From an uncultured virus (IMG/VR IMGVR_UViG_3300025652_000050) (Duplodnaviria > Heunggongvirae > Uroviricota > Caudoviricetes > Crassvirales), in the IMG/VR virus record IMGVR_UViG_3300025652_000050: a DNA stretch of 64,000 bases, one strand, 5' to 3'. Positions 1 to 58,345 of this stretch are shown here, piece after piece (the first letter of the stretch is position 1; each line of letters opens with the position of its first letter). Made by a program: the position numbers and the translations under genes. The notes under the pieces were generated by a model. The model did no database searches and was not told where the DNA came from. It saw nothing but the letters and a program-made list of their open reading frames with translations.

Positions 1-112
1 ATAAACTTACGCACAGGACAGGTTAAACCATTTTGCAAATTACCTTATAAATGAAGAAGGTATGACCATTGAACAGATAGATGCCGAAATATTAGCACTT
101 GACTAATGCCTC

Positions 113-241
113 ATAACGTTCCCTCGCTTGCACGTCGTTGCGGGCTTATGAAAACTAATTATTCAACTTAAAATAAAAGAAAATGGAAAACGAAAACGTG
201 AATAAACCACAATACCCGCAATGCGTGCAAACGAGTGTTAT
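113..241. repeat. attC-like imperfect palindrome (putative ssDNA recombination hairpin)
   Basis: ATAAC(113-117)/GTTAT(237-241), CTCG/CGAG, TTGCACG/CGTGCAA, one extrahelical T135, CGTTGCGGG/CCCGCAATG; asymmetric spacer beside the AAC/GTT core; ~70-nt loop. Confidence 0.7.
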
Positions 242-797
242 AACCAGTGCTTTGTCAATTGTGGGTTCAAGTCGAAAAAATGGAGATAGAGAAGAAAATG
301 ATTTTTATCCAACACCAAGCTATGCAGTAGAAGAACTTTTGAAACGAGAAGTTTTTAATGGAAATATTTGGGAGTGTGCTTGTGGAGAAGGAGATATAAG
401 CGAAGTTTTTAAAAACAAAGGATTTGAAGTTGTTAGTACAGATTTAATTGATAGAGGTTACGGAGAACAACTTGATTTTTTAAAAAGTGATTTAGTAGCT
501 GATAACATTGTAACAAATCCTCCTTACAAAATTTCACTCGACTTTTTATTAAAGGCGAAAATGCAATGTAGAAGTAAAATAGCGATGTTTTTAAAAACTG
601 TTTGGCTTGAAAGTGATGCAAGATATGAAATGTTCCAAGACACAGAATTTCCATTAAAAACTATTTACCAATTTAGTAAAAGAGTTTCGCTTTATAAAAA
701 TGGCAAAAAGATGAAAAATAGTGGAATGATTGCTTATGCTTGGTACGTTTGGGATAAAGATTATGTCGGAAAACCAACTGTTGAATGGATACGCTAA
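183..797 (+). CDS. DNA amino-methyltransferase (N6-adenine type), cassette cargo
   Basis: DFYPTP, WECACGEG SAM-binding motif, NPPY catalytic motif. Confidence 0.85.
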   Translation: MENENVNKPQYPQCVQTSVITSALSIVGSSRKNGDREENDFYPTPSYAVEELLKREVFNGNIWECACGEGDISEVFKNKGFEVVSTDLIDRGYGEQLDFLKSDLVADNIVTNPPYKISLDFLLKAKMQCRSKIAMFLKTVWLESDARYEMFQDTEFPLKTIYQFSKRVSLYKNGKKMKNSGMIAYAWYVWDKDYVGKPTVEWIR

Positions 798-810
798 TAG
801 CATTGGTTAT

Positions 811-828
811 AACTCTTGAATGTACGAA
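811..828 (-). repeat. attI-like conserved site, copy 1
   Basis: AACTCTTGAATGTACGAA, 17/18 identical to reverse complement of 57385-57402; abuts the cassette end. Confidence 0.55.
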
Positions 829-1095
829 ACTCAACTGCAATCACTAAACATTATAAATACTAATAAAATGATTGAATTTAGCGTTATATATAAAGCGAAA
901 TATAGACTAAAAAACAATACAAATTATATTTACTCAACTTCTGGATTATGCTTTAATTTAAAAACTAATAATCTAATAAAGCAAGTTACAAAAGGCTATA
1001 CAATTGGTTATTTAATTGATGGTAAATTCAAATCATTAAAAGTTTTAAAAACAGAATTAGAGATAATTCCAAAAAAAGAATATACACCATTTTAA
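820..1095 (+). CDS. Small hypothetical protein ending PKKEYTPF (true start may be ATG 868)
   Basis: ORF; last 27 nt identical to the end of 57177..57365. Confidence 0.7.
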   Translation: MYETQLQSLNIINTNKMIEFSVIYKAKYRLKNNTNYIYSTSGLCFNLKTNNLIKQVTKGYTIGYLIDGKFKSLKVLKTELEIIPKKEYTPF

Positions 1096-1097: not shown

Positions 1098-2339
1098 ATG
1101 AATATACAATTAAAATCATCTGGAAAAAAAGACTTCAATAAGTTAAGTATAAGGTTATATCAAGGATTTTTTGATATATGTTCTACTACAAATTTATTAG
1201 TTCCTAAAAACTCTTGGGATAACAAGAAACAAATATGTAAAGATGAAGTTTTGAATGTAAAAATTCAGAAGTTTAAAATATACATAGCAGAACAAATTAC
1301 AAATTCTTATGTAAATGGAGATATAGTTGATAGAGATTGGCTTGTATTTCATATTAAAAAACATTTTTCAAGAAATTATGAGGAAGTAAATTTTGTTAAT
1401 CCTATTCATAAAATATATTTTAGTGAATTTGCTTCCTGGTGGTTAGAAAATGAATCTATTAAATGGAAAGTTTCAGCAACTAAATACATGGGTAAAAAAG
1501 TAAAGGATCAATATTCTTTATTTTTGGAGAAGTTTAAGGATTTCGAGAGTTTGAATAAAAAAGTAAAATTAGTGGATATAACAAATAACTTCATGTATGA
1601 TTTTGTTTTTCACTTAAAATCCTTGAATTATGGACCAACAACCATAGACAAGAACATATCATATCTAAAATTCTTTTGTAATAGAGCATTGGAGCATGGT
1701 TTTAAAGTAAATCAAGAGTTTAAGCAGCGAGTATTCGTAGAGAATGAAAACAATGAAGTAGAGGGAGTTTATTTGAATGAAAAAGAGATAGACAAAATTT
1801 ACAATTTAGATTTATCGCATGATGATCATTTAGATAATGTGAGAGATTTATTGATACTTTCTGTATGGAGTGGAATGAGAATTTCTGATTTTATGCATAA
1901 TTTAAAAACAGAAAACATAAAAGATGGTTTTATAGAGATTAAGACTCAAAAAACTAAAACTTTTGTAAAAATTCCGGTTCATAGTATGGTTAAAAAAGTC
2001 TTGGATAAAAGGTTTGGACAATTACCTAAAAAAATGAGCAGCACAGAATATAATTTACGAGTAAAAGATGTTTGTATGTTAGCTGATATTGACAATTTAG
2101 TTTTTGGTAGTTTAATGAATCCAGAAACAAGGAGAAAAGAGAATGGTTATTATGAGAAGTATAAATTAATTTCAAGCCACGTTGCAAGGAGGTCTCTAGT
2201 TACTAATTTAAAAGATAAAATATCAGATGAAGCTTTGTCTAGTATAGGTGGTTGGTCAACAACAAATCTTTTAAAAACATACAACAAAAAGTCAAAAACA
2301 GATTATGCAAAAGAGTTGCAAGAGTTTTGGAAGAAATAA
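1098..2339 (+). CDS. int: Tyrosine recombinase / phage integrase
   Basis: GMRISD, KT, HVARR, GW and terminal Y catalytic motifs; arm-binding-like N-terminus and SAM-like domain. Confidence 0.92.
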   Translation: MNIQLKSSGKKDFNKLSIRLYQGFFDICSTTNLLVPKNSWDNKKQICKDEVLNVKIQKFKIYIAEQITNSYVNGDIVDRDWLVFHIKKHFSRNYEEVNFVNPIHKIYFSEFASWWLENESIKWKVSATKYMGKKVKDQYSLFLEKFKDFESLNKKVKLVDITNNFMYDFVFHLKSLNYGPTTIDKNISYLKFFCNRALEHGFKVNQEFKQRVFVENENNEVEGVYLNEKEIDKIYNLDLSHDDHLDNVRDLLILSVWSGMRISDFMHNLKTENIKDGFIEIKTQKTKTFVKIPVHSMVKKVLDKRFGQLPKKMSSTEYNLRVKDVCMLADIDNLVFGSLMNPETRRKENGYYEKYKLISSHVARRSLVTNLKDKISDEALSSIGGWSTTNLLKTYNKKSKTDYAKELQEFWKK

Positions 2340-2858: not shown

Positions 2859-3167
2859 ATGAATAAACTTTGTCCAGAAGATATAGAATGGAGTTTTATA
2901 ATGTCAATGGGTTTTACTGACCATCATCATAGTAAATCTATTAATAAAAAGTATGGTTTAGAAATGGAAATTATTACTAAAAAAATAGATGGTTATAGTT
3001 TTGGTAAGGGAAAAGTTTATTATTTCATTACGGGTCAAGAAAAAGAATATACATATTTACAAAAATTATGTGATGATTGGAATGAAATTAAAAACTTTGA
3101 TGATCCAGATAGTGAAATAAAATGGGTTAAGATTATAACAAAAAAAAATCCCACTAAATTTAATTAG
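2859..3167 (+). CDS. Hypothetical protein
   Basis: 102-aa ORF with A-rich leader. Confidence 0.7.
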   Translation: MNKLCPEDIEWSFIMSMGFTDHHHSKSINKKYGLEMEIITKKIDGYSFGKGKVYYFITGQEKEYTYLQKLCDDWNEIKNFDDPDSEIKWVKIITKKNPTKFN

Positions 3168-3810: not shown

Positions 3811-4074
3811 TTACAAATTTACCAAAAACTCTTGCAAGTCAACCTCAAAAACTAAAAGTATTTTATGCAGCGTAAAAACATCAACAACATGAGAACCATC
3901 TTCAATTTTAGAAATTCTAGAAGTTTTGGTGCCATTTCCAAAAACTGCTTTTGAAAGTGCATACTTACTCATGTTCTTTTCTTCTCTTTTTATTCTGATA
4001 ACTTTACCAATGGTATTGATTAAATCATATTTCTCTAATTGTTCTCTTACTCGTCTGTCTGTATTGCTTTCCAT
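3811..4074 (-). CDS. XRE-family HTH regulator
   Basis: IGKVIRIKREEKNMSKYALS...ISKIEDG pattern. Confidence 0.8.
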   Translation of the reverse strand: MESNTDRRVREQLEKYDLINTIGKVIRIKREEKNMSKYALSKAVFGNGTKTSRISKIEDGSHVVDVFTLHKILLVFEVDLQEFLVNL

Positions 4075-4208
4075 ACTTTAATTGGTTTTGTGAAAATCTC
4101 TGAATTTGGATCAATTATGTTGTACCCTTCAGGTTTTTCATTATCTCCTGGAATTAAATTACTCAAGAGTTTTTGGTTATATTCTTTAAATTTTTGTTGT
4201 GTTGTCAT
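4047..4208 (-). CDS. Small hypothetical protein (53 aa, not in ORF track)
   Basis: MTTQQKFKEY...AIQTDE*, fills the gap in the operon. Confidence 0.5.
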   Translation of the reverse strand: MTTQQKFKEYNQKLLSNLIPGDNEKPEGYNIIDPNSEIFTKPIKVWKAIQTDE

Positions 4209-4214
4209 AGTAGA

Positions 4215-4604
4215 TTACTTTTTCCGCATTACTTTTTTAGAAATTCCTAAAACACTATTGGGGTCTTTTGCATGAGCTTTCAATATAATAGCAAGTTCTT
4301 CCCATTGGCAAAAAATAGCTTTTGATAGTAATTTTAATACTTCATCTAAATTCTCAAAATTTCGGTCCACAAATTCAGTATCTACCTTGTCAACTTTTTC
4401 AAATTCTTTTACTTCAGCTCTCATTAGTGCCATTATAAAAGGTTTTCCGTATTTTTTAACGTCTGCTTTGTAATATTCAGTTCCTTTCAATACTTCGTTG
4501 TGGTGTAGTGCATTTTGATTAGCTAAAATGCTTTTTGCAAGTGCAGTTTGGAATGCTATTCTTCCGTATTGTTCTTCAGTTAATTCTTCAACTTTTATTT
4601 TCAT
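4215..4604 (-). CDS. Hypothetical protein
   Basis: ORF in cluster. Confidence 0.7.
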   Translation of the reverse strand: MKIKVEELTEEQYGRIAFQTALAKSILANQNALHHNEVLKGTEYYKADVKKYGKPFIMALMRAEVKEFEKVDKVDTEFVDRNFENLDEVLKLLSKAIFCQWEELAIILKAHAKDPNSVLGISKKVMRKK

Positions 4605-4605
4605 C

Positions 4606-4821
4606 TTACTTAATTTTTAATACTTGTTTTGCGTTTTTTACCATTTGTGAAAGTTTCTCCCAATTTTCAAGACTTAAACTTATCTCACTACCTGCATGTT
4701 CCACTACTAACCAGGTTTCCTCGTTTTTATTCGCATCTAGTGTAACTTCTTGCTCTGTAACTTCATTTTTATCACAAAAAATTCTTACTGTTTGTTTAAA
4801 TTCTGCTCTTTGATTTTTCAT
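4606..4821 (-). CDS. Hypothetical protein
   Basis: ORF coupled to neighbours. Confidence 0.65.
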   Translation of the reverse strand: MKNQRAEFKQTVRIFCDKNEVTEQEVTLDANKNEETWLVVEHAGSEISLSLENWEKLSQMVKNAKQVLKIK

Positions 4822-5006
4822 TTTATTTCTATTTTAATTTTTAAATTCATTTGATTAACAATTTTCTGTAAAGTTTTAAAACTTGCCTGACTCTCTCCGT
4901 TTAAAATATGATTAAGTGTTGAGTAGTTTACTTTATACTTTTTTGAAAATTCAATTTGATTTAGTCCGCTTTCTTTTACCAGGTTTATAATAATTTCGTT
5001 GATCAT
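4818..5006 (-). CDS. Cro/XRE-like HTH protein
   Basis: GLNQIEFSKKYKVNYSTLNHILNGE HTH pattern. Confidence 0.75.
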   Translation of the reverse strand: MINEIIINLVKESGLNQIEFSKKYKVNYSTLNHILNGESQASFKTLQKIVNQMNLKIKIEIK

Positions 5007-5054
5007 TAATTCGATATTGATTAATTTACTATTTTATAAAAACTCTTGAAGGAA

Positions 5055-5204
5055 TTACCACCCCATAAAAAAATACCCAATAGCAACAAGATACAAACAA
5101 ATAATTGCCCCTAAATGTTGTGGGTAAAAAACAAGAATCGCAGTTGCAAGTGCAAAAACTATAATTGCCGTTATCATACTGCTCTTTTTATTTTCGTTCT
5201 GCAT
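5055..5204 (-). CDS. Small two-TM membrane protein (49 aa, not in ORF track)
   Basis: MQNENKKSSMITAIIVFALATAILVFYPQHLGAIICLYLVAIGYFFMGW*. Confidence 0.55.
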   Translation of the reverse strand: MQNENKKSSMITAIIVFALATAILVFYPQHLGAIICLYLVAIGYFFMGW

Positions 5205-5242
5205 ACTCGTGTTTTTTTAGTTGTTTTTTTTTTTTGTCATGA

Positions 5243-5392
5243 CTAATCATTTGTTTTAAAATCTGTTGCTTTTCTGTATCTCTTTAATACGTTTCTAGCT
5301 CGTATTAATTCTACTTCACTAAGTTTGTTTTTCTTAAAGTAGTTTCTGTAAGTCTGTGCTAATTGTTCTGCGGTTCTGTTTTTTGCTGCCAT
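5243..5392 (-). CDS. Small basic hypothetical protein (49 aa, not in ORF track)
   Basis: MAAKNRTAEQLAQTYRNY...*, starts 2 nt after the upstream stop. Confidence 0.55.
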   Translation of the reverse strand: MAAKNRTAEQLAQTYRNYFKKNKLSEVELIRARNVLKRYRKATDFKTND

Positions 5393-5394
5393 GA

Positions 5395-5706
5395 TTATTT
5401 GATTTTATTATCTCTTAATCCGTTTTTCAAATATTCCTCTGGTTCCAATTTATCTAATGGAATTTTTGATAAATCAATTTTGGCTTTTGCTTGTCTTCTT
5501 AGGTTTCTATTTTCGATTTCTAAATAGCTTTCAATTCTCTCGGTTTTAATAACTATTTTATTACAAATAGTTACTACTAAATAAGCCGTAATTTGTCGGT
5601 CTTTATTAATTGTCTTAATTGTATAGGTTGTGTCTTGTGCGTTTGTTTTAGTGCTTAAAAATAGTAAGAATCCTAAAATGAATAAAAATGTTTTTGTTGT
5701 TTTCAT
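5395..5706 (-). CDS. Hypothetical protein with N-terminal signal peptide
   Basis: MKTTKTFLFILGFLLFLSTKTNA/Q. Confidence 0.7.
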   Translation of the reverse strand: MKTTKTFLFILGFLLFLSTKTNAQDTTYTIKTINKDRQITAYLVVTICNKIVIKTERIESYLEIENRNLRRQAKAKIDLSKIPLDKLEPEEYLKNGLRDNKIK

Positions 5707-5709
5707 GGT

Positions 5710-5994
5710 TTATTGATTTTTAAAATTAAATTTATGGTTGTATTTTTCTTTGATTTCGTTTGACCTTGTTTTAAAGCTATTTCCGACCTCTTCTTTTTCT
5801 TCCAATATTAGTTTAATATTTAAGATAAAGTTTCCAACAATTGAAACGTGAATGAAGTTTTGAGGTTCGTATTGTGATCCGTTCACGATATACTTTGCAT
5901 TTTCGATATAAATATCGCTTAAACTATGCTTTTGCGGTTCTTCATCTTCTTTGATATTGAATAACCAATTGATAAAATTTTCTAGTTTCTTCAT
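5710..5994 (-). CDS. Hypothetical protein
   Basis: ORF in cluster. Confidence 0.65.
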   Translation of the reverse strand: MKKLENFINWLFNIKEDEEPQKHSLSDIYIENAKYIVNGSQYEPQNFIHVSIVGNFILNIKLILEEKEEVGNSFKTRSNEIKEKYNHKFNFKNQ

Positions 5995-6014
5995 GGTGGT
6001 TTTTTTAAAAGATT

Positions 6015-6055
6015 AAAAAACTAACCTATTTTAAATTATAAAATAGGTTAGTTTT
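6015..6055. terminator. Intrinsic terminator
   Basis: AAAAAACTAACCTATTTT...AAAATAGGTTAGTTTTT inverted repeat. Confidence 0.7.
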
Positions 6056-6063
6056 ATTTATTT

Positions 6064-6501
6064 TTATTCTAACAAATGTGAATTTTCTAAAATTTCAGTT
6101 CCTATTTTTTTTGAATCAGAAAAAGATAATGTAGTATACTTCCCGTTCTTATCAATTATAAATAATATACTAAATCCTTTGTACTTGCTTATTGTGTAAT
6201 TTTTTTCTGTATATGATATTTCAGTTTCTTTTTCAAGGCTTGAAAGTTCGATCAACTTGTTAGCAAAAGTTTCAAGCTTGTCTTTTCCTACAATCATAAT
6301 ACTTCCTATATCAGTAATATGTTTGTATTTTTTATTACTATAACCATAATAAAAATACTTTAATATTTGGCCCGATTCTGATCTTTCGATTATTTCATAA
6401 CCGTTTTTACTTTTTAATAAAGTTTTTCTTTCTACCTGGCTTTGAGCCAAAGTTGTAAAGCTAATTAATAGCATTGCGAAAATTGTAATAAATTTTTTCA
6501 T
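6064..6501 (-). CDS. Exported hypothetical protein
   Basis: Sec signal MKKFITIFAMLLISFTTLA/Q. Confidence 0.75.
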   Translation of the reverse strand: MKKFITIFAMLLISFTTLAQSQVERKTLLKSKNGYEIIERSESGQILKYFYYGYSNKKYKHITDIGSIMIVGKDKLETFANKLIELSSLEKETEISYTEKNYTISKYKGFSILFIIDKNGKYTTLSFSDSKKIGTEILENSHLLE

Positions 6502-6562
6502 AATAAGTGAATTTGATTTTTTTGCCTACTCTTTTAAAGATTTTCGGCTTCCTCTTTTTTGG

Positions 6563-11962: not shown

Positions 11963-12391
11963 ATGAAAAAATACAAACCTTCAGATGAAGCTTTAAAGTT
12001 AATTAATTTCAAAGAACTATCTTTAGTATTAACCGGAGATTCAAATTCTTTGAGAAGGACATTTATTCCTAAAAGACTTCAAGCAGAAGTGAAAAATCTT
12101 GATAGATATTTAACTCGCTTCATTAATAACAATAGAACTTGGGATGATACGGTTCCAAGAGTTGAGGTAGAATTACCAGGTAGTAGAAGAGTTTTGGTAA
12201 AGGCACCAGATATTGTTCAAAATCATAAAGTTATAAAAGCTCTTCCTAAAGAAGTATCAAAATTAGAAAACGGTTTATTCAAATTTGATGGAAAGTTTTA
12301 CACGACTAAATTCAGTAAAAAAACAGGTGTAGAAGTTCGAGAGTATTACGAACTTGAAGATGCCAAAAAATATCTAAGTAATAAATTATGA
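11963..12391 (+). CDS. Hypothetical protein
   Basis: ORF in operon. Confidence 0.7.
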   Translation: MKKYKPSDEALKLINFKELSLVLTGDSNSLRRTFIPKRLQAEVKNLDRYLTRFINNNRTWDDTVPRVEVELPGSRRVLVKAPDIVQNHKVIKALPKEVSKLENGLFKFDGKFYTTKFSKKTGVEVREYYELEDAKKYLSNKL

Positions 12392-12888
12392 AAGAAATTG
12401 ACTTAATGCCTTTAATAAAAGATGATAGTTATCGTATAGGTAAAAAAATACACATTAATAATGATGATAATTATGCAACTCCTCCAGAATTATACGAGGA
12501 ATTGAATAAACGATTTAATTTTGATTTTGATCCTTGTCCTTATAATGAAGGAGAGATCATAAACGATGGTTTAAAAATTGAATGGGAAAAATCAAATTTT
12601 ATAAACCCACCTTATAGCCAAAAATTAAAAGAACAGTTTGTTGTTAAAGGAGTTGAAGAAATGAAAAAAGGAAAAGTTTGTGTTTTCCTAATACCTGTAT
12701 CTACAAGTACAAAATTATTTCACGAATATATTAAACCAAATGCATCTTCAATTGAATTTATTAAAGGTAGAATAAAGTTTGGCAAGATTGATAAATATGG
12801 TAATTTCTATTTACCCTTAAACTCAAAAGGAAAAACACAGTCAGGAACAAAAGATAGTATGATCGTAGTTTTTGATGGAACAAAATAA
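12388..12888 (+). CDS. Phage Dam-like N6-adenine DNA methyltransferase
   Basis: YATPPE, FDFDPCP, FINPPYS, FIKGRIKF motifs. Confidence 0.85.
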   Translation: MKEIDLMPLIKDDSYRIGKKIHINNDDNYATPPELYEELNKRFNFDFDPCPYNEGEIINDGLKIEWEKSNFINPPYSQKLKEQFVVKGVEEMKKGKVCVFLIPVSTSTKLFHEYIKPNASSIEFIKGRIKFGKIDKYGNFYLPLNSKGKTQSGTKDSMIVVFDGTK

Positions 12889-13044: not shown

Positions 13045-14439
13045 ATGAAAAAAATAAAAACAGGAAGTGATTTTAGCGGAGTAGGTGCTTTTGACCAAGC
13101 TTTAGATAGATTAGGGATAAAACAAAACAAGATTTTTGCTTGTGATATGGATAAATATGCAAGACAAACTTATATTTTAAATTTTGGAGAACCAAAATAC
13201 TACCCAGAGAATGTTTATGATAGAGAAATACCAAAAGAAAGTCTTGATATTTATATGACTTCGCCACCTTGTCAATCTTTTAGTTTAGCCGGTAAAAGAA
13301 AAGGAGAAGATTCTGTAAATGGAGTATTGTTTTATAATTCACACGAATTTATTGTAAAAAACAAACCTCGTTACTTCATATTTGAAAACGTGAAAGGCTT
13401 ATTAAGTGATGATTCCGGTAAAACTTTTCAAAGATGGATTGATTATTTAGGTGGAAAATCAGTAAATGGAAATCCTGTTATTTTTCCACATGAGGAAGCT
13501 ACACCGTATCATGTCTACTTTCAAGTTTTAAACGCTAAACACTACGGCATACCACAAAACAGAGAACGTATTTTTATTATTGGTATTCGTGATGATGAAG
13601 ATAATGATTTTAGTTTTCCAAAACCGTTTAATTTAGAAAAAAGATTGAAAGATGTTTTAGAAAGTGAAGTTGATGAAAAGTATTTTTTGAGTGATTCAAA
13701 CATTAACGCTTTGATAAAGTATAACGAAAGACAAGTTGAAAATAATAGAGGTTTTTCTGCTAAATTCAGAAATCCAGACGAAGTAGAAACAATGGACGCT
13801 TTGAAATGTGGCGGTGGAGGGAAAGATGATTTAATTAAAATAGGTGCAATAAGAGGTCGTAACCCACAAAATCCATTAAGTAGAGTTTCAGGATTACCAA
13901 CGGAACAAATGCTTGAAATAAACGAAAACGGAACTTCAAACGCATTAACTACGGTTCAGAAAGATAATGTAGTTGTTCTTCCTGCTGAAATAAAAATAAT
14001 AGGAAACTTAAAAGGAGATAAAGGTCATAATGTTCAAAATTTCTACGATATTGGTGGAGTTTCCCCTACTGTTATGGAAAACCATGGAAATGTAACGAAA
14101 GTTATAATACCAACCAACAATTCTAAAGGATATGATATAGCAGAAGAAGAAGAAGATTCAATAAATTTCTCAAATCCTAATTCAGAAACTCGCAGAGGTC
14201 GTGTAGGTCATAAGGTGAGTCAAACTCTTGATACGGCTTGTAATCAAGGTATTTATACCCAACAAAGGATTAGACGATTAACTCCAAAAGAATGTTTTCG
14301 CTTGATGTCATTTAATGAAGATTTTATTGAAAGGACTATAAACTCAAAGAAAATATCTGATTCTCAACTTTACAAGCAAGCTGGTAATTCAATTGTTGTA
14401 GATGTTTTAGTCGAGATTATCAAAAAACTTAAATTATGA
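13045..14439 (+). CDS. dcm: DNA (cytosine-5)-methyltransferase
   Basis: FSGVG, SPPCQSFS, ENVKG, QNRERI, RRLTPKEC, YKQAGNS motifs. Confidence 0.95.
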   Translation: MKKIKTGSDFSGVGAFDQALDRLGIKQNKIFACDMDKYARQTYILNFGEPKYYPENVYDREIPKESLDIYMTSPPCQSFSLAGKRKGEDSVNGVLFYNSHEFIVKNKPRYFIFENVKGLLSDDSGKTFQRWIDYLGGKSVNGNPVIFPHEEATPYHVYFQVLNAKHYGIPQNRERIFIIGIRDDEDNDFSFPKPFNLEKRLKDVLESEVDEKYFLSDSNINALIKYNERQVENNRGFSAKFRNPDEVETMDALKCGGGGKDDLIKIGAIRGRNPQNPLSRVSGLPTEQMLEINENGTSNALTTVQKDNVVVLPAEIKIIGNLKGDKGHNVQNFYDIGGVSPTVMENHGNVTKVIIPTNNSKGYDIAEEEEDSINFSNPNSETRRGRVGHKVSQTLDTACNQGIYTQQRIRRLTPKECFRLMSFNEDFIERTINSKKISDSQLYKQAGNSIVVDVLVEIIKKLKL

Positions 14440-16581: not shown

Positions 16582-16872
16582 TTAAAATACTATTACAATA
16601 TCTGTAAAATGCAGAACTGTATATTCAACAGTTTCCAAGGTTACTAAAGTACTTCGATTTCCATCAAAGAGTATTTCGTCTCCAACTTCAACTGAGTTAG
16701 CACCATCTTCTTTTTTAGGGCATTGTAACCCAACACTAACTACTGTTCCAAGTTTGAATTTTTGATTTTTGTCTTCACTTGAAGTTAAATCAATTCCAGA
16801 GTTTGTGATGTTTTCAATATCCTTTACCTTAACAACTACGTTATGGTTTACTGCTTGTCCTTTAAAGTTCAT
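16582..16872 (-). CDS. groES: Co-chaperonin GroES (cpn10)
   Basis: TNSGIDL mobile loop, GTVVSVG, VEVGDEILF; start at MNFKGQ overlapping the groEL stop. Confidence 0.88.
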   Translation of the reverse strand: MNFKGQAVNHNVVVKVKDIENITNSGIDLTSSEDKNQKFKLGTVVSVGLQCPKKEDGANSVEVGDEILFDGNRSTLVTLETVEYTVLHFTDIVIVF

Positions 16873-18502
16873 ATTTTTCGCGTTTGAGACTAACAATGTT
16901 GTCCGTTAATAGTATTGTGTTTGCAACTGATATAGCATTTACAAGAGCATTTTTGATACCTTTATGACTATCTACAATTTTTGCTTCAAACATATTCACT
17001 TTAGAAAAGTTTTTTACATCATATCCAATTGGATATTTAGGAATTTCAACTTTATTAATACCTTGCTCTAAACAGAAAATATATTTTAAATAAAACTTAA
17101 CTTTCTCAAATAATTTAAGTTTTCTTTTTTCAGTAACATCAAAATTTGCATTTTCCATTATTCTAAAAAATGGAGTAGTAATAGCTACGGAAGAAACGTA
17201 GTCTAATTCATTACTTAAATCAGCACTTGCATTCATTAAAGCAATTCCACCACCTGCTAAAACTCCTTCTTCTTTAGCTGAGTAAACTGCCTTAACTGCA
17301 TCATCAACTCTTGCTAATCTTTCAAGTAACTCACTCTCTGTAACTCCACCTACTTTTATAATAGATATTCCTCCTGAAAGTTTTGATATACGACTACTAC
17401 AGTATTTCTTCTCTGAATTACTCGTTGTATTCTTGATTACTTCTTTTAATTCAGCTATTTGTCCTTGGACTTTTTCTGAAATAGTTTCATCAACTTTTGG
17501 AGTTATGATAGTATCAGTTTTTCCAATAACAATCTTTTGACATTCACCAAAAAACTCAGCGGTTCTTCCATCAAAATTATCTCCTGATAAAGTTGTGATA
17601 CATTGTGTTCCACAAATCATTGCTAAATCTTTCAAAGTATCTTTACGTTTTTGACCAAAACTTGGAGGTGCAACAACTGAAATTTTCAAAGCTCCTTTCA
17701 ATTTGTTTTTAAGTAAAACATCTTTTACGTGAAACTCCATTTCAGATACAATAACTAATTCTCTATTATTGTTGGCAGCAAATTCCAAGAAAGGTGAAAT
17801 TTGATTTACAGTCTTGAAATTAATTTCAGAAAAAATCATTAAAGGGTTGTTATCGAACACTACCGTTCTATCTGAATGCACATTTATAAATAAATCATCT
17901 ACATATCCACTCTCTACAAGAGTTCCTTCAATAGTCTCTAAATACGTTTCATCTGTATCACTTCTAAAATGTGCTACTGCTCCATTTTCTCCTGCAGATA
18001 AAAAAGCATCTGTTACAATTTTTGCAATTTCTTCATCAGAATTTGCAGAAGTTTTTGCAACACTATAAATCAATTCATCTGTAATTGGAGTAGCAATTTT
18101 TTCTAAGTACTCCAATATCTTATCACGAGATTTTTCAATGTCGTTTTTAATATCAATTGGAGATTTCCCTTTCTTAAACTCCTCGTATGAATACTTTACA
18201 AAAGCCTGAGCCAAAACAATTGTAGCAGTAGTGGAATCACCTGCTAAATCAACAGTTTTTTGAGAAGCTTCTTTAAGTAATTCACAAGCTAAATTATGTA
18301 GTGGGTTTTCTAAATGGATTGCTTGAAGTGCATCATATCCATCTTTTGTAGGGTAATTTTTATTACCTTCAGTTTCTATTAAAACTGTACGACCTCTATA
18401 TCCAAGTGTTGAGCCAATTACGTTTCCGATAATGTTTACTCCCTCAATAAGAGATTCCTTAGCCTGATTTCCAGAACTAATGTCTTTAATAATGTTACTC
18501 AT
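16862..18502 (-). CDS. groEL: Chaperonin GroEL (cpn60)
   Basis: TLGYRGRTV, TKDG, AGDSTTAT, PSFGQKRK, KLSGGISIIKVGG, EEGVLAGGG. Confidence 0.95.
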   Translation of the reverse strand: MSNIIKDISSGNQAKESLIEGVNIIGNVIGSTLGYRGRTVLIETEGNKNYPTKDGYDALQAIHLENPLHNLACELLKEASQKTVDLAGDSTTATIVLAQAFVKYSYEEFKKGKSPIDIKNDIEKSRDKILEYLEKIATPITDELIYSVAKTSANSDEEIAKIVTDAFLSAGENGAVAHFRSDTDETYLETIEGTLVESGYVDDLFINVHSDRTVVFDNNPLMIFSEINFKTVNQISPFLEFAANNNRELVIVSEMEFHVKDVLLKNKLKGALKISVVAPPSFGQKRKDTLKDLAMICGTQCITTLSGDNFDGRTAEFFGECQKIVIGKTDTIITPKVDETISEKVQGQIAELKEVIKNTTSNSEKKYCSSRISKLSGGISIIKVGGVTESELLERLARVDDAVKAVYSAKEEGVLAGGGIALMNASADLSNELDYVSSVAITTPFFRIMENANFDVTEKRKLKLFEKVKFYLKYIFCLEQGINKVEIPKYPIGYDVKNFSKVNMFEAKIVDSHKGIKNALVNAISVANTILLTDNIVSLKREKYEL

Positions 18503-28465: not shown

Positions 28466-29086
28466 TTAGTGGTTTTTTTTATTTCTTCTTTTTATTAAAT
28501 GTTCAATACATTTTCCTTCCTCAATTAATTTAAGAGCTTCTTGTCTAACATCATAAGCTTCTTTTGGTGTTACATAAGAACCTAAGTTACAATGACCATT
28601 ATTCCACCATATAGTAGATGTATATTTTTTGTGGCTAATTCTTACTCCTGGAAAACCTAATTCATTCACTTTGTCTTTATTTGAATTAGCTCTATTTGTT
28701 ATTACTTGAAAATTACCTACAAAGTTATGAGTTGGTATATTATTTTTATGATCAAAAACTAATTTATTTGTTCCATCTGAAAAATGATTATAAAAAGCCA
28801 TTCCAATTATTAAATGAGTTTTAATATGTCTTTTTTTACTGTTTTTTGATAAAGTAACTCTTAAGTAACCATGACTATCAAAACATTGTTTAAGAATAAT
28901 AGTTGGCCTATGTTGTAGTTTACTTCCGTTTTTTTGAAATCTTTCTAAAGACTTTAATCTACCAATATCACTCACTTGATATAATCCTTCATATTCTGGA
29001 ATATCTTTCCAAATTTCCTCACAAACTTGACCTTCGTCATTCGTGTAAATTATATTTTCTAAACTTAAATTCTTGTAGTATTCCAT
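28466..29086 (-). CDS. NUMOD4-HNH homing endonuclease with AP2-like C-terminus (copy A)
   Basis: EIWKDIPEYEGLYQVSDIGR NUMOD4; DHKN...N...N HNH; HCNLGSY. Confidence 0.88.
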   Translation of the reverse strand: MEYYKNLSLENIIYTNDEGQVCEEIWKDIPEYEGLYQVSDIGRLKSLERFQKNGSKLQHRPTIILKQCFDSHGYLRVTLSKNSKKRHIKTHLIIGMAFYNHFSDGTNKLVFDHKNNIPTHNFVGNFQVITNRANSNKDKVNELGFPGVRISHKKYTSTIWWNNGHCNLGSYVTPKEAYDVRQEALKLIEEGKCIEHLIKRRNKKNH

Positions 29087-29099
29087 GATATTTTAATAT

Positions 29100-29194
29100 A
29101 AAAAGAAAATCCTCAAAGAGCCACTACGCATCTTCAAGGATTTCTCGTTTAGGGTGTTTCACCTATTTATCTTAAACGCAAGTAGTGGATTGCA
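29100..29194 (-). ncRNA. Structured leader RNA of HNH gene A
   Basis: Three hairpins plus CCACTAC/GTAGTGG loop-loop pairing; covaries with 44925-45019; TACATTTG promoter at 29198-29205. Confidence 0.75.
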
Positions 29195-29246
29195 TTGCAA
29201 ATGTATAAAAAAAATCATTACTTTTGTTAATATAATTAAATTAAAT

Positions 29247-38903: not shown

Positions 38904-39749
38904 ATGGCATCACAGAACCCACAAGAATATTACGAAAATTTAGAGAATCATGGTGATTTCCAATATGAAACTTTAGAAAATCTTGTAAACAATTACATGC
39001 AAAACTTCACAGGAGACAATTCTATTTTAGGAGTTATTCCAAGAAGACAAGTTTTGTTTTGGATGAAAAAAGGTATTCAAAATTTTACTTTTGATGCTTT
39101 AAAAGAAGTGAAAGCAGTAGAGCTTGAACTAGGAGAAGATTTAAGTGTTATTATGCCACCTGATTACGTTCAATATGTTAGAATATCTTGGTTAGATACT
39201 AATACAGGTTATTTTAGACCGATGGCAGAAAACAGAAGAATGGCTATTTCAACTGCTTACTTACAAGACCATGAAGCGAACATTTTATTTGATAATGAAG
39301 GAGAAATTTTAGAAGGAACTTCAGCTTCGGAATTAATACACAGTCAAAAATCATATTCAATAAGTCCAGATTGTGGTTGTTCAGGTCAGAATTGGTCAAT
39401 CGATCCATCTAAAAATTACAATGGAGAATTTAATATTGATAAGAGAGCAGGTAAAATTAGATTTAGTTCTCAAAATGCAACAAAAATAATTACATTAGAG
39501 TACATATCTGATGGTTTAGAATATTCTAATGAAAGCGATATTAAAGTACATAAGTTCGCAGAAATGGCTTTATACGCTTGGACAAGTTGGAATTTATTCA
39601 ATAACAAAATAGGAGTAAACGAATACGACAGAAGATCAAAAAAGAAAGATTACGATACTGCTTTTAGAAATTGTAAACTAAAATTAATGAATCTTAGAAT
39701 TTCAGAGGTAACACAACTTTTAAAAGGTAGAGACAGATGGGTAAGATAA
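38904..39749 (+). CDS. Putative structural (tail ring) protein
   Basis: PPDYVQYVRIS, LEYISDG; position. Confidence 0.6.
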   Translation: MASQNPQEYYENLENHGDFQYETLENLVNNYMQNFTGDNSILGVIPRRQVLFWMKKGIQNFTFDALKEVKAVELELGEDLSVIMPPDYVQYVRISWLDTNTGYFRPMAENRRMAISTAYLQDHEANILFDNEGEILEGTSASELIHSQKSYSISPDCGCSGQNWSIDPSKNYNGEFNIDKRAGKIRFSSQNATKIITLEYISDGLEYSNESDIKVHKFAEMALYAWTSWNLFNNKIGVNEYDRRSKKKDYDTAFRNCKLKLMNLRISEVTQLLKGRDRWVR

Positions 39750-43789: not shown

Positions 43790-44191
43790 ATGAATTTTAC
43801 AGTAAAAAAACATAGTACGGAAGAAGTTTATGATATTATGTGTTCCTTTTGGGATATGCATAAATTTCCAAGAGTAGATTTATCGTATCTACCTGTAAAC
43901 ACATTCATTGTCTATTCAGAGGAAATTCCTTTGTATTCAATGTGTTTTTACTTTACAGATGCGAAAGGTTTAGCTTGGATAGCATGGCAAATTTCAAATA
44001 AAAATGTTACATTTAAGAAAAGAGATGGAGCATTAGCAGTACTTTTAAATCATATAAAAAACTATGCTAAGAAAAAAGGGGTAGGATTTCTTATGACAAC
44101 CTCAAATACTGAAGCAGTAGTAACCGTTCTTAAAAATTCAGATTTTATTGAAGGTGATTTGAATGTCAACCAATATTTTTGCAAATTATAA
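43790..44191 (+). CDS. GNAT-like protein of the podovirus virion module
   Basis: AWIAWQISN...GALAVLL...AKKKG pattern; position ahead of the ejection proteins. Confidence 0.55.
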   Translation: MNFTVKKHSTEEVYDIMCSFWDMHKFPRVDLSYLPVNTFIVYSEEIPLYSMCFYFTDAKGLAWIAWQISNKNVTFKKRDGALAVLLNHIKNYAKKKGVGFLMTTSNTEAVVTVLKNSDFIEGDLNVNQYFCKL

Positions 44192-44911: not shown

Positions 44912-44924
44912 GATGTTTTAATAT

Positions 44925-45019
44925 AAAAAGAAAATCCAAATAGAGCTACTACACATCTATTTGGACTTCTCGTTTAGGGTGTTTCACCTATTTATCTTAA
45001 ACGCAAGTAGTAGATTGCG
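44925..45019 (-). ncRNA. Structured leader RNA of HNH gene B
   Basis: Same fold as 29100-29194 with CTACTAC/GTAGTAG pairing; TATATTTG promoter at 45023-45030. Confidence 0.75.
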
Positions 45020-45096
45020 AGACAAATATATAAATATTAATTCAATTTAATTAAAAAAAATCATTATTTTTGTTTAATAATTTATAAATTATAATT

Positions 45097-56598: not shown

Positions 56599-56802
56599 TT
56601 ATAAAAATATTAGTTTGTGGTTAATTCCTTCACGAATTTTAATTCGCTTCTCTTTGTACAGTTTCATTAGAACTTCTCGACATTCTTTATAAGAAATTCC
56701 AAATTCATTCTGAACTTTTACAATTGGTGTTCCGCATTTATTACCGTTTGATTTTTGCTCAAACTCTAGGAATAAAAATATTTCAAATTCTAAATCTTCC
56801 AT
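56599..56802 (-). CDS. Small winged-helix-like protein
   Basis: GNKCGT...LMKLYKEKRIKIREGIN; ATG 56802. Confidence 0.6.
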   Translation of the reverse strand: MEDLEFEIFLFLEFEQKSNGNKCGTPIVKVQNEFGISYKECREVLMKLYKEKRIKIREGINHKLIFL

Positions 56803-57164: not shown

Positions 57165-57176
57165 TCACGTTTTGGT

Positions 57177-57365
57177 TTAAAATGGTGTATATTCTTTTTT
57201 TGGTTTTAATATTTCGTGTTTATCACGTGCTAATTTTTCTGCTATTGCATCACGAATGAAATCACAAACTCGAATGTTATATTTACCTAAATTTTTCAAT
57301 GTTGTACTTTGAATTTTGGTTAATTTTACGGTTTTAACTTCTGTATATTTTAGTGGTGTTGGCAT
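57177..57365 (-). CDS. Small ribbon-helix-helix-like protein ending PKKEYTPF
   Basis: KTVKLT...VCDFIRDAIAEKL; last 27 nt identical to 1069-1095. Confidence 0.7.
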   Translation of the reverse strand: MPTPLKYTEVKTVKLTKIQSTTLKNLGKYNIRVCDFIRDAIAEKLARDKHEILKPKKEYTPF

Positions 57366-57384: not shown

Positions 57385-57402
57385 TTCGTACATACAAGAG
57401 TT
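57385..57402 (+). repeat. attI-like conserved site, copy 2
   Basis: TTCGTACATACAAGAGTT; GTT at 57400 begins the cassette. Confidence 0.55.
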
Positions 57403-57412
57403 GGCAGTAATT

Positions 57413-57877
57413 TTACCCAACATTGCGCGCCAATTGCAATTCGAGTTTTTTAATGTTTATCATTTGAGAAACTACATTGCAAATTGCGTTCGCTTGATTA
57501 ATGTAAGTTTTGTCTTTTTGTACTTTTTGAATAGTATCTAAAAGAATTACACTCAAATCATTTTCTTGTATTGCTACAATATTTTTTTTATTTTCTTCCA
57601 TTTTATTAGGGTTGAGTTCGTCTTTTTTCACTTGTATTGATACATTTTTTAATTCATTTTGTCTTTTTTCTAAAACTCCTTGTTTTAGTTTTACTCTTAC
57701 AGGAATTAAATTCTCAATAAATAAATCTATTTCGTTTTCAAAGAAATTATAAGTTTGCTTATCTGTAAAAACAATATAAGTAACTCCTACTTTTTTCCAT
57801 TTAGTTATAGTGATAATTTTATCCTTATAATTAAATTTCTTATCGATTAATAAATTTAGCTTTTGTTGCATCTTCAA
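57413..57877 (-). CDS. Hypothetical protein, cassette cargo
   Basis: ORF whose stop overlaps the cassette end repeat. Confidence 0.7.
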   Translation of the reverse strand: MKMQQKLNLLIDKKFNYKDKIITITKWKKVGVTYIVFTDKQTYNFFENEIDLFIENLIPVRVKLKQGVLEKRQNELKNVSIQVKKDELNPNKMEENKKNIVAIQENDLSVILLDTIQKVQKDKTYINQANAICNVVSQMINIKKLELQLARNVG

Positions 57878-58121
57878 GTTGTTGTTTTAGCTCTAAATTC
57901 AAGTCATAAAGTTTTATAATCTCTATTGATAATTTCTTTATTTGCTCGTCTTTGGTTTCTTTTTCTTCATTCATCGCTCCGTAATATCGGGTGCAAACAG
58001 ATGTAGCAGTTCTTCCAGTTTTCAATGAAGCAATAAAAAACGCTTCTCTTAAATTATTAGGGTTTTTTAAAACCTCTTGTTTAATAATTTCTTCTTCTTC
58101 TGTGGTCCAATTTTTTGCCAT
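57840..58121 (-). CDS. Myb/HTH-like protein, cassette cargo
   Basis: WTTEEEEII...GRTATSVCTRYY. Confidence 0.65.
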   Translation of the reverse strand: MAKNWTTEEEEIIKQEVLKNPNNLREAFFIASLKTGRTATSVCTRYYGAMNEEKETKDEQIKKLSIEIIKLYDLNLELKQQLEDATKAKFINR

Positions 58122-58218
58122 AATATTATTTTTAGTAAAGTTTTCCTAAAGTGGTCGAATTTGACCACTTTAAATATTAAATAGTTAGTAAAATTTTCCT
58201 AACATCAAAAAACTACTG

Positions 58219-58345
58219 CCAACACGTGCTATAAGAAATAGCGGGTTCGGTGCTTTCTGAAAGTTCAGGTGTATTTTTAAAATCTGTCATAAATTTAAAG
58301 TTTAGTTTTTATTAATCCGCTACTTCTCATAGCACCATACGTTAG
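58219..58345. repeat. attC-like imperfect palindrome
   Basis: CCAAC/GTTAG core; GTGCTATAAGAAATAGCGG vs CCGCTACTTCTCATAGCAC (17/19); asymmetric AC vs CATAC spacer. Confidence 0.72.

What the first reader, a model, noticed from the sequence alone, without database searches (positions are those of the whole stretch)
113..1095. Integron-like gene-cassette locus in a phage, left copy: methyltransferase cassette near an integrase
Seen: an attC-like hairpin (113-241). The methyltransferase body is bounded by inverted ends GTTATAACCAGTGCT (237-251) and AGCATTGGTTATAAC (799-813), 14/15 complementary. Next come AACTCTTGAATGTACGAA (811-828), a small gene ending PKKEYTPF, and a tyrosine recombinase. The same four parts, in the same order, recur 56 kb away around unrelated cargo. 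Established: integron cassettes start with GTTRRRY and end in an attC whose R'' matches that start. Read on the minus strand this locus fits attI-like site, cassette, attC, with the gene inverted relative to integron convention and the integrase pointing away. Inference: a phage-borne cassette-exchange system that swaps accessory genes such as anti-restriction methyltransferases. The array probably continues left of the window, because a new GTTATGAGGC start lies at 108-117 on the minus strand. Which recombinase acts is unknown; the neighbour looks like an ordinary prophage integrase rather than IntI.
Basis: partly seen in the sequence, partly recalled or inferred. Interest (0 to 1): 0.88.

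Follow-up and report, generated by a model that had tools for sequence, protein, structure and literature searches.

The report
Integron-like gene cassettes in a phage
This phage carries accessory genes, such as a DNA methyltransferase, as swappable cassettes bounded by hairpin sites, much as bacterial integrons do; related phages exchange whole cassettes at the same base positions, and many encode their own small recombinase next to the array.

Summary

**Anatomy.** On the gene strand each locus reads: ..TAAC | ~118-nt hairpin | GTTA-cargo-TAAC | conserved 15-mer TCTTGWATGTACGAA | small gene.

**Same cargo, other flanks.**
- The methyltransferase unit (237-813) recurs in two other viral contigs at 94-95% identity, while both flanks differ.
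- The right-hand cargo (57400-58223) recurs at 94.9% identity in another phage's array.

**Breakpoints and structure.**
- Five nearly identical Flavobacterium psychrophilum phages differ by whole hairpin-plus-gene units. Every breakpoint lies in TAACG(T).
- Thirty-one distinct hairpins share one stem with strong covariation. G.T wobbles show that the coding strand folds.

**A candidate recombinase.**
- In 45 of 61 viral loci that encode a 266-268-aa Xer/IntI-like recombinase, sense-oriented hairpin arrays lie directly upstream. There are 109 hairpins upstream, none downstream and none in the opposite orientation.
- These arrays end at a conserved TAAC|TACTATATGTA box about 52 nt before the recombinase start codon.
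- The window lacks that recombinase. Its neighbouring gene is an ordinary integrase.

**Prior work.** One short relative of the hairpin, in Polaribacter phage P12002L, was published as a predicted attC and was the one site not recombined by IntI1.

**Verdict.** This is a new variant of the integron principle. Recombination itself has not been shown.

The parts
108..117 (+). End of the preceding unit (..GCCTCATAAC). Its complementary start would lie left of the window.
   Evidence: Read from the sequence. It has the same ..TAAC| form as 31 aligned hairpin flanks.
118..236 (+). attC-like hairpin element of the methyltransferase cassette. Arms 123-144 and 215-235, 70-nt loop that holds the ATG at 183.
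   Evidence: Folds; homologs in Flavobacterium phages and 10 viral contigs; covariation on alignment A5.
237..813 (+). Cargo unit with complementary ends (237-251 and 799-813). It carries the body of a DNA methyltransferase; the ORF is 183-797.
   Evidence: PHROG 799 DNA methyltransferase, E 9.5e-60 over residues 24-203; the same 577-nt unit sits in L175 and L176 with other flanks.
814..828 (+). Terminal site of the array (attI-like candidate), TCTTGAATGTACGAA.
   Evidence: the same 15-mer follows three different last units (window left, window right, L045).
820..1095 (+). Small ORF of 91 aa with no family match. Its last 27 nt are shared with the right-hand small gene.
   Evidence: In G001 its 3' end is joined to the genes that lie downstream of the right module.
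1098..2339 (+). 413-aa tyrosine recombinase of the ordinary phage or Bacteroidota integrase kind. It is neither IntI nor the Xer-like array recombinase.
58224..58340 (-). attC-like hairpin of the right-hand cassette.
   Evidence: (pair I4).
57400..58223 (-). Right-hand cargo unit with complementary ends (58209-58223 and 57400-57414). It holds ORFs 57840-58121 (weak Myb-like match) and 57413-57877.
   Evidence: pair I7. 94.9% identical to L025 6498-7322, while the flanks are about 60% identical.
57385..57399 (-). Terminal site of the right-hand array, TCTTGTATGTACGAA.
57177..57365 (-). Small ORF of 62 aa (PHROG 25647, function unknown) ending in PKKEYTPF.

Best explanation
Both loci are the terminal ends of integron-like gene-cassette arrays embedded in operons of a Bacteroidota (probably Flavobacterium-type) phage.

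**The cassette.** On the coding strand a cassette consists of:
- a ~118-nt imperfect hairpin that starts just after ..TAAC with a G and ends in T;
- then a cargo unit whose first ~12-15 nt (GTTA......) are complementary to its last ~12-15 nt (......TAAC).

In a circularised cassette these ends would extend the hairpin stem (inferred).

**The proposed reaction (inferred).** Cassettes are gained, lost and replaced by site-specific recombination. The crossover lies in TAA(C)|G at the 5' foot of the hairpin on the coding strand. In integron terms the coding strand therefore plays the part of the attC bottom strand. New cassettes enter at a conserved terminal site: TCTTGWATGTACGAA here, and TACTATATGTA-type boxes in relatives.

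**The likely enzyme.** In many related phages it is a 266-268-aa Xer/IntI-like tyrosine recombinase encoded about 52 nt beyond that terminal site. This window does not encode it. Its arrays are therefore either relics or are served in trans. Service by the adjacent 413-aa integrase is less likely.

**Second role of the hairpin.** About half of the hairpin loops hold the start codon of the cargo gene, as for the methyltransferase here.

**Cargo.** Accessory and largely unknown. DNA-modification genes are the main recognisable class.

**Shown:** the anatomy, covariation, strand bias, exact breakpoints and the link to the recombinase. **Inferred:** the recombination chemistry, the single-stranded substrate and the enzyme.
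For: 1. **Same cargo, different flanks, switching exactly at T|GTT and AAC|.**
2. **Whole-unit differences among close relatives.** Five F. psychrophilum phages that are 97-100% identical differ by four indels and one replacement, each made of hairpin-plus-gene units. Every edge lies in (C)TAACG(T). Four different last units abut one terminal site, and D35 has an extra cassette exactly there.
3. **Hairpin family.** 31 distinct members share 17 pairs, 15 of them with compensatory changes. The covariation score is 0.791 against 0.206 in shuffles (0 of 500 as high), and slid controls stay at or below 0.175.
4. **Complementary unit ends.**
   - 11 of 20 adjacent hairpin pairs have at least 10 of 12 complementary bases, against 1.7% of 860 control pairings.
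   - In the recombinase-linked arrays the figure is 35 of 63.
   - Homologous methyltransferase units carry different but still complementary ends.
5. **Strand bias.** In 109 hairpins there are 150 G.T and 14 T.G wobbles, against 25 C.A and 5 A.C.
6. **Recombinase link.**
   - 45 of 61 loci with at least 1 kb upstream of a homolog of the 268-aa recombinase have sense-oriented hairpins there, 109 in all.
   - 0 of 69 loci have any downstream, and none is in the opposite orientation.
   - A conserved box follows the last TAAC.
7. **Recombinase family.** Nearest XerA/XerC/XerD and IntI models: NF040815 E 4e-53, TIGR02249 E 2e-42. Both scores are below the curated cut-offs.
8. **Published attC features.** AAC followed by G on the recombining strand, and cleavage within ..AAC (passages of PMC2727003).
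Against: - No recombination product, circle or enzyme activity has been observed.
- The window has no Xer-like recombinase. The nearest relative G001 (53% complete), the 99%-complete G002 and Polaribacter phage P12002L also lack it, yet G002 and P12002L have such hairpins.
- Deeper comparisons show exchange at the 3' edge of the hairpin as well. One hairpin type sits in front of many different cargos, and the right-hand cargo has a different upstream hairpin in L025. A one-point integron crossover does not explain this.
- The extra base lies on the 5' arm, not where integron extrahelical bases lie.
- Gene polarity is opposite to that of integrons.
- The published short relative P12002L_attC1 was the one of six phage sites that IntI1 did not recombine (PMC9892861 section 3.4 and supplement).
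- My hairpin scans from then on required AACG and TGTT. The invariance of G and T in those sets is therefore partly by construction.
- The likeness between the window's 15-mer and the TACTATATGTA box (9-10 of 15) was judged by eye.
Confidence: 0.7

Rival explanations
1. The hairpins are RNA elements: 5' leaders of each cistron that set translation starts, mRNA stability or processing. Under this view the modular look arises because conserved leaders act as linker sequences for ordinary homologous recombination between co-infecting phages, as proposed for the promoter/stem-loop cassettes of T4-type phages (recalled, not read here).
For: - The folding strand is the sense strand: 164 G.T/T.G wobbles against 30 C.A/A.C.
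- All hairpins point with transcription.
- 50 of 109 loops hold an ATG that opens an ORF running at least 50 codons past the hairpin, against 1 of 109 on the other strand.
- Two different hairpins give in-frame starts to the same methyltransferase.
- One hairpin subfamily encodes a conserved leader peptide in front of several methyltransferases.
Against: - Breakpoints fall at the same base even where the two hairpins involved share only about 6 nt.
- Unit ends are complementary over hundreds of bases with compensatory change.
- A dedicated tyrosine recombinase and a conserved terminal box sit at the array end, with strict polarity.
- Rfam gives nothing for 1-900 at E up to 10 except three chance-level hits.
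- The two roles are not exclusive. I treat the leader role as a second function of the same element.
Confidence: 0.15
2. The hairpins are small non-autonomous mobile elements (MITE-like) that insert into TAAC|GTTA-type palindromes between genes. The cargo units would then simply be resident genes.
For: - A hairpin of one type appears between many different flanks, with sharp edges on both sides.
- Sizes are uniform, about 117-124 nt.
- In L015 the two flanks of one hairpin are complementary to each other.
Against: - The indels among close relatives are hairpin plus cargo, never hairpin alone.
- No target-site duplication is seen.
- Cargo ends pair with each other across the gene rather than across the hairpin.
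- Identical cargo units move between arrays.
- Arrays are polar and tied to a recombinase.
Confidence: 0.07
3. The four parts recur by chance or through ordinary shared ancestry of two paralogous regions. Under this view there is no special mechanism.
For: The genome is AT-rich, and short inverted repeats are common there. The 15-mer search at 3 mismatches is not significant on its own.
Against: - The 18-mer recurrence: 0 of 100 shuffles.
- Fold z-scores.
- Five shuffled windows yield 0-2 hairpin-like hits, against dozens in related loci.
- All the comparative results above.
Confidence: 0.02

Closest known systems
Integrons (IntI integrase, attI site, attC-bounded cassettes)
   Same: - Arrays of single-gene or few-gene cassettes.
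- Imperfect palindromic sites of about 130 nt bounded by ..AAC and GTT...
- The sites are conserved as structure, not as sequence.
- The cassette start is complementary to the inverse core.
- AAC is followed by G on the strand that folds.
- Breakpoints lie at the core.
- A conserved terminal site is where the most variable cassette sits.
- In relatives, a tyrosine recombinase gene lies next to that site and points away from the array.
- Cargo is mostly of unknown function.
   Different: - The recombinase is a 266-268-aa Xer-like enzyme. It scores below the IntI cut-off, and its TIGR02249 match comes in two stretches, the best covering model positions 5-178 of 315. That the gap is the IntI-specific insertion is inferred from that split.
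- Genes lie on the folding strand, so they read towards the terminal site and the recombinase.
- The hairpin has a ~70-nt open loop that often holds the gene's start codon.
- Complementary ends run 12-23 nt.
- The irregularities are a conserved G.T and a 5'-arm bulge, not the integron extrahelical bases.
- Exchange is also seen at the other edge of the hairpin.
- The system sits in phage operons.
- This window has no such recombinase.
CALIN reported in Polaribacter phage P12002L (PMC9892861; section 3.4 and supplement read)
   Same: - The host is in the same bacterial family group, and the array holds methyltransferase genes.
- The published P12002L_attC1 oligo is the TAAC|G..T|GTTAGGC hairpin between two methyltransferase genes.
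- Other intergenic hairpins of that phage have the same edges. One follows ..AAAATTACTGCCAAC, the same unit end as the window's right-hand cargo.
   Different: - Those hairpins are short, about 40-50 nt between AAC and GTT.
- The paper treats them as integron attC sites found by HattCI. In the parts I read it describes neither the complementary unit ends, nor the coding-strand polarity, nor an associated recombinase.
- attC1 was the one site IntI1 did not recombine.
Promoter/stem-loop (PeSL) cassettes of T4-type phages (recalled; no paper read here)
   Same: Accessory phage genes in hyperplastic regions are flanked by conserved regulatory stem-loop modules that travel between genomes.
   Different: As recalled, PeSL exchange is ascribed to homologous recombination between repeated modules, with no dedicated recombinase, no AAC/GTT cores and no complementary cassette ends.
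Xer recombinases and elements that exploit dif-type sites (recalled)
   Same: The array-linked recombinase is closest to the XerA/XerC/XerD models.
   Different: No dif-like 28-bp site was sought or seen. The sites here are long hairpins in arrays.

Membership tests
Integron | Integron integrase (IntI) with the IntI-specific insertion in the catalytic domain | tested here: not met
   - Window integrase: no TIGR02249 hit at E up to 0.1, only weak XerC/XerD matches.
- Array-linked recombinase of relatives: TIGR02249 scores 146 bits against a cut-off of 265. The match is in two stretches, the best covering model positions 5-178 of 315.
- 0 of 5 Bacteroidota genomes that hold the hairpin have a hit over the cut-off.
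- The need for the insertion comes from a passage of PMC8138268.
Integron | attC: imperfect palindrome bounded by inverse core RYYYAAC and core GTTRRRY, conserved in structure rather than sequence | tested here: inconclusive
   - ..TAAC and GTTA.. bound every hairpin, and structure is conserved with covariation.
- The RYYY/RRRY positions are not consistently met (for example TCATAAC, GTTATAA).
- No attC model (IntegronFinder, HattCI) could be run.
Integron | G directly after AAC on the recombining (bottom) strand | tested here: met
   - All sense-oriented hairpins in the scan that did not demand it (read by eye) have AAC|G. The opposite strand has AAC|A.
- Later sets were selected with AACG, so they cannot be counted as evidence.
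- The feature itself comes from a passage of PMC2727003.
Integron | Extrahelical bases on the R''-L'' arm that set strand choice | tested here: not met
   - The extra base, present in a minority of rows of alignment A5 (column 33, counted by eye), lies on the 5' arm of the folding strand.
- The conserved irregularity is a G.T wobble, present in 28 of 31 sequences.
Integron | Cassette boundaries and crossover at the core (G|TT) | tested here: met
   All edges of the five whole-unit differences lie in TAACG(T). The window's own units switch at the cores. This is comparative inference, not an observed reaction.
Integron | attI site next to the integrase gene, where cassettes are inserted | tested here: inconclusive
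   - Relatives: a conserved box follows the last TAAC, 52 nt before the recombinase ATG in 15 loci, and all 37 loci printed show such a box.
- Window: a 15-mer shared by three arrays. It is followed by small genes and, on the left, by an unrelated integrase.
Integron | Cassette genes read away from attI, with attC downstream of the gene | tested here: not met
   Genes lie on the folding strand and read towards the terminal site. The hairpin lies upstream of its gene.
Integron | Recombination of the site by an integron integrase | not testable with these tools
   Published assay only: the short relative P12002L_attC1 gave no verified recombinants with IntI1 (PMC9892861).
CALIN (cluster of attC sites lacking an integrase) | At least two predicted attC sites close together with no IntI nearby | not testable with these tools
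   Each window locus shows one hairpin. The left array is cut by the window edge. No attC predictor was available.
MITE | Short element with terminal inverted repeats and target-site duplication, moving on its own | tested here: not met
   No duplication is seen, and the indels always include cargo.

The most novel reading that the evidence does not exclude
Bacteroidota phages carry their own analogue of the integron, with four distinctive features:
- a small Xer-like recombinase with an adjacent insertion site;
- arrays of cassettes whose ~120-nt hairpin sites fold on the coding strand;
- hairpins that double as translation-start leaders;
- gene polarity opposite to that of integrons.

This platform would stock and swap counter-defence genes such as DNA methyltransferases, Mom-type modification enzymes and RNA ligase-like genes. 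The window would hold two array ends of this system that have lost, or borrow, the recombinase.
Probability: 0.55. Interest if true: 0.9.

Novelty: new variant of a known kind. Interest (0 to 1): 0.85.

Why it matters
Integrons are the textbook bacterial device for capturing genes. A phage-borne counterpart with its own recombinase family would show three things:
- the hairpin-cassette principle evolved, or was adapted, outside IntI;
- how these phages swap anti-restriction genes so quickly;
- where to find a large pool of unknown accessory genes, since 94 of 109 cargo ORFs have no Pfam family.

The system also offers a compact, structure-guided recombination module to test, and a rule (TAAC | hairpin | GTTA) that lets cassette boundaries be read directly from sequence.

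Tried and rejected
**Searches that gave nothing useful**
- Rfam at gathering thresholds on the whole window found only DUF805b at 6523-6557. At E up to 10 on 1-900 it gave three chance-level hits. No tRNAs were found.
- No whole genome is held for the window.
- The window integrase found no relatives in viral contigs: 11 pattern hits, none confirmed.
- blastn of 56800-58700 against phages found no match.
- Earlier findings of this scan: nothing on record.

**Searches dominated by chance hits**
- The 16-mer terminal-site pattern in viral contigs gave 23 loci. Only L045 is a true homolog; the rest have GC 0.30-0.50 and unrelated flanks.
- The hairpin pattern gave 3 false hits among 13 viral loci. 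It also matched 41 genome loci, of which I took only five Bacteroidota/Flavobacterium records as true, judged from record titles and match length.

**Checks that narrowed the finding**
- My ungapped hairpin scan of the window found only the right-hand hairpin among GC-rich candidates.
- My scan of Polaribacter phage P12002L missed its short hairpins. I read them directly instead.
- The window's other methyltransferases (12388-12888 and 13045-14439) were checked and are not cassette-bounded.

**Ideas dropped**
- An invertible segment between the two oppositely oriented modules, IS200/IS605-type single-strand transposition, and restriction-site (AACGTT) mediated joining. No supporting feature was found and none was tested further.

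**Rows left out of the recombinase count**
- One search kept 80 loci. Before the count I dropped 10 by eye because the match was truncated or the flank was short: L126, L127, L143, L152, L154, L166, L167, L171, L173, L174.
Full report
**1. What is in the window**

The window is AT-rich phage DNA. It encodes DnaB, NinG, an antirepressor, HNH/NUMOD4 endonucleases, a crAss-type muzzle domain, GroES/GroEL and one tyrosine recombinase.

On the + strand the left end reads as follows:
- ..GCCTCATAAC (108-117).
- A hairpin element, 118-236. Its arms are 123-144 and 215-235 and its loop is 70 nt.
- A 577-nt unit, 237-813. Its ends GTTATAACCAGTGCT and AGCATTGGTTATAAC are complementary at 14 of 15 positions.
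- TCTTGAATGTACGAA (814-828).
- A 91-aa ORF (820-1095) and a 413-aa integrase (1098-2339).

The methyltransferase ORF (183-797) begins at an ATG in the hairpin loop. Its match to phage DNA methyltransferases starts at residue 24, just past the hairpin and the unit start.

The same order recurs on the minus strand:
- hairpin 58224-58340;
- an 824-nt unit, 57400-58223, with complementary ends and two ORFs;
- the 15-mer with one change (57385-57399);
- a 62-aa ORF that ends in the same PKKEYTPF.

Both hairpins fold far better than shuffled sequence as RNA (z -4.2). As single-stranded DNA the left one does too (z -3.07, 1 of 200 shuffles as good); the right one is weaker (coding strand z -2.12, 6 of 200 shuffles).

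- The right copy has no recombinase after it.
- The two small proteins share only their C-terminal 19 residues. At DNA level the genes share the start region (the 18-mer and a few bases beyond) and 26 identical bases ending in the stop codon.

**2. The hairpin belongs to a large, structured family**

- Window 126-230 matches unannotated intergenic DNA of six Flavobacterium psychrophilum phage records at 75.7%.
- A pattern built from the two arms found 13 viral loci. Ten are true homologs. In all ten the hairpin is conserved, while the flanks change completely at ..TAAC|G on one side and T|GTTA.. on the other.
- A scan for AAC..GTT-bounded inverted repeats then found many further hairpins of quite different sequence in the same loci. 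Each measures about 117-124 nt between AAC and GTT. Five shuffled windows gave 0-2 hits.
- Thirty-one distinct hairpins align to one stem (alignment A5).
  - 15 of 17 pairs show compensatory changes.
  - 88.1% of cells are paired, against 54.7% in shuffles (0 of 500 as high).
  - The covariation score is 0.791 against 0.206, and sliding the partners gives at most 0.175.
- One pair is G.U in 28 of 31 sequences.
- In a second set of 109 hairpins, arm mismatches are 150 G.T and 14 T.G, against 25 C.A and 5 A.C.

The strand under selection to fold is therefore the coding strand, either as RNA or as single-stranded DNA.

**3. The units between hairpins have complementary ends**

- In 12 loci, 11 of 20 adjacent hairpin pairs have at least 10 of 12 complementary bases between the 12 nt after one hairpin and the 12 nt before the next. 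The figure for control pairings is 1.7% of 860. The failures are long gaps where my scan missed a hairpin in between.
- In the recombinase-linked arrays the figure is 35 of 63.
- Homologs of the window's methyltransferase in other contigs carry different ends that are still complementary. Examples are GTTAGGCGTAGTGCC../..GGCATTACGCCTAAC and GTTGTGCGTAGTGC../..GCATTACGCACAAC.
- More distant homologs sit in ordinary gene contexts with no such ends.

**4. Content switches exactly at the cores, including for the window's own cargo**

*Left unit.* L175 and L176 hold the same 577-nt unit with the same ends. Identity is 95.0% and 94.3%. The 119 nt upstream are 71% identical (a different hairpin with similar feet), and the 119 nt downstream are 64-66% identical.

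*Right unit.* L025 6498-7322 is 94.9% identical (783 of 825). The upstream hairpin is 59.8% identical and the downstream 117 nt are 60.7% identical. In L025 the unit lies between two hairpins in an array with three methyltransferase genes.

*Close relatives.* Five F. psychrophilum phages (2A, D15, D17, D35, F7) are 97-100% identical across this region but differ by four indels and one replacement.
- Every edge lies in (C)TAACG(T). The edge is either at the 5' foot of a hairpin or at the array's terminal site, ..TAAC|GTATAGATTTCACTC.
- Four different last units abut that terminal site.
- D35 has one extra cassette exactly there.

The unit of gain and loss is therefore the hairpin plus the following cargo. 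One such cassette in phage 2A encodes what looks like an RNA ligase: I read a KYDGSN motif in the translation by eye, and no family search was run on it.

*Terminal 15-mer.* In this window's lineage three different last units end at AAC directly before TCTTGWATGTACGAA: window left, window right and L045.

**5. A candidate enzyme and platform in relatives**

- In G003 (L025) and in a Bacteroidota genome bin (L088), the last cassette is followed within about 55-60 nt by a 268-aa or 266-aa tyrosine recombinase. The two proteins are 50% identical.
- Its best family models are XerA (NF040815, E 4e-53), XerD, XerC and the integron integrase TIGR02249 (E 2e-42). All scores are below the curated cut-offs. 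The IntI match comes in two stretches, the best covering model positions 5-178 of 315. That the gap corresponds to the IntI-specific insertion is my inference.
- A search of viral contigs with this protein found 92 relatives, of which 80 loci were kept. I tabulated 70 of them.
  - Of 61 loci with at least 1 kb upstream, 45 have at least one sense-oriented hairpin there, 109 hairpins in all.
  - None of 69 loci with at least 1 kb downstream has one.
  - None is in the opposite orientation.
- In all 37 loci that I printed, the last (T/C)AAC is followed by a box of the TACTATATGTA type, read by eye. The sequence in front of it differs from locus to locus. In 15 loci the TAAC lies exactly 52 nt before the recombinase ATG.
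- Cargo: 109 longest ORFs were scanned and 15 have a Pfam family at E up to 1e-5. These are N6_N4 methylase x6, C5 methylase x1, Mom x2, PAPS reductase, YopX, a dATP/dGTP pyrophosphohydrolase, an ADP-ribosyltransferase and an EF-Tu fragment. The other 94 have none.
- In 50 of 109 hairpins a loop ATG opens an ORF that runs at least 50 codons past the hairpin. On the other strand the figure is 1 of 109.

**6. What does not fit, or is missing**

- The window has no such recombinase. Its integrase is unrelated beyond the superfamily and gives no IntI hit.
- G001 (53% complete), G002 (99% complete, with hairpins) and Polaribacter phage P12002L also lack the Xer-like protein.
- None of five Bacteroidota genomes that hold the hairpin has an IntI above the cut-off.
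- One hairpin type stands in front of many cargos, and the right-hand cargo has another hairpin in L025. Exchange therefore also happens at T|GTT.
  - A passage of PMC2727003 says that an attC without extrahelical bases loses strand selectivity and then recombines at the other core.
  - That could explain two exchange points, but it is only an inference.
- G001 joins the 3' end of the left-type small gene to the genes downstream of the right module. The small gene between the 15-mer and the shared 3' end is thus itself a swappable allele, and I cannot explain its role.

**7. Literature**

- Five full-text searches found one relevant paper, PMC9892861. I read section 3.4, other passages and part of the supplement.
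  - It reports 17 CALINs in phages, including Polaribacter phage P12002L with two methyltransferase cassettes.
  - Its P12002L_attC1 oligo is a short member of the present family. It was the one site of six that gave no verified IntI1 recombinants.
- I found no paper that describes the complementary unit ends, the coding-strand polarity, the loop start codons or the Xer-like recombinase platform. Papers outside the held library were not searched.
- PMC2727003 and PMC8138268 were read as passages only.

**8. Verdict**

It is not an integron in the strict sense, because the IntI, gene-polarity and extrahelical-base criteria fail. It works like one. It is best described as a new variant of the hairpin-cassette principle in Bacteroidota phages, with this window holding two array ends that lack the dedicated recombinase. 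The chemistry and the enzyme remain to be shown.

Noticed in passing
window 6523-6557 (-): Full-length match to the Rfam DUF805b RNA motif: 54.9 bits against a gathering score of 35.6, E 6.5e-13. It lies between small early-region ORFs of the phage.
   Followed up: no
window 28953-29209 and 44778-45034; ORFs 28466-29086 (-) and 44186-44911 (-): Two NUMOD4 (one also HNH_3) homing-endonuclease-type genes share a 257-nt repeat at 89% identity over their 5' ends and upstream DNA. Both are inserted antisense among structural genes.
   Followed up: partly
window 16582-18502 (-): A phage-encoded GroES (Cpn10) and GroEL (Cpn60) pair.
   Followed up: no
window 12388-12888 and 13045-14439 (+): Two further DNA methyltransferases (Dam-like and C5) that are not hairpin-bounded. 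The C5 enzyme resembles one that in G003 is fused to a hairpin-encoded leader. The leader is therefore dispensable for this enzyme family.
   Followed up: partly
window 183-236; L001 ~3056-3136; L005, L010, L013, L056, L072, L088: One hairpin subfamily encodes a conserved leader peptide (M)MRNENMIEPQNPQCVQ.. (MENENVNKPQYPQCVQ in the window). The leader is fused in frame to methyltransferases of different classes, and in other phages it ends after about 26 codons. Whether the peptide itself matters is unknown.
   Followed up: partly
window 1069-1095 (+) and 57177-57203 (-); G001 1-105: The two small genes after the terminal 15-mers share 26 identical bases ending in the stop codon (..PKKEYTPF*). 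In the nearest relative G001 this stretch joins the left-type gene to the right-module neighbours. This suggests a second exchange point or a conserved signal.
   Followed up: partly
window 60628-60739, inside ORF 60130-60996 (-): Short tandem TTGTTTG-type repeats with 11-nt spacing inside a coding region.
   Followed up: no
window 39737-43768 and 47250-55376 (+): A 1343-aa protein with a crAss-type muzzle C-terminal domain (E 5e-9), and a 2708-aa ORF with no Pfam family.
   Followed up: no
L056 (Flavobacterium cellulosilyticum contig, locus coordinates ~4051-6562): A leader-fused C5 methyltransferase and two further hairpins lie next to a 513-aa transposase-like ORF in a bacterial contig. It is unclear whether this is a prophage or a chromosomal array.
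   Followed up: no
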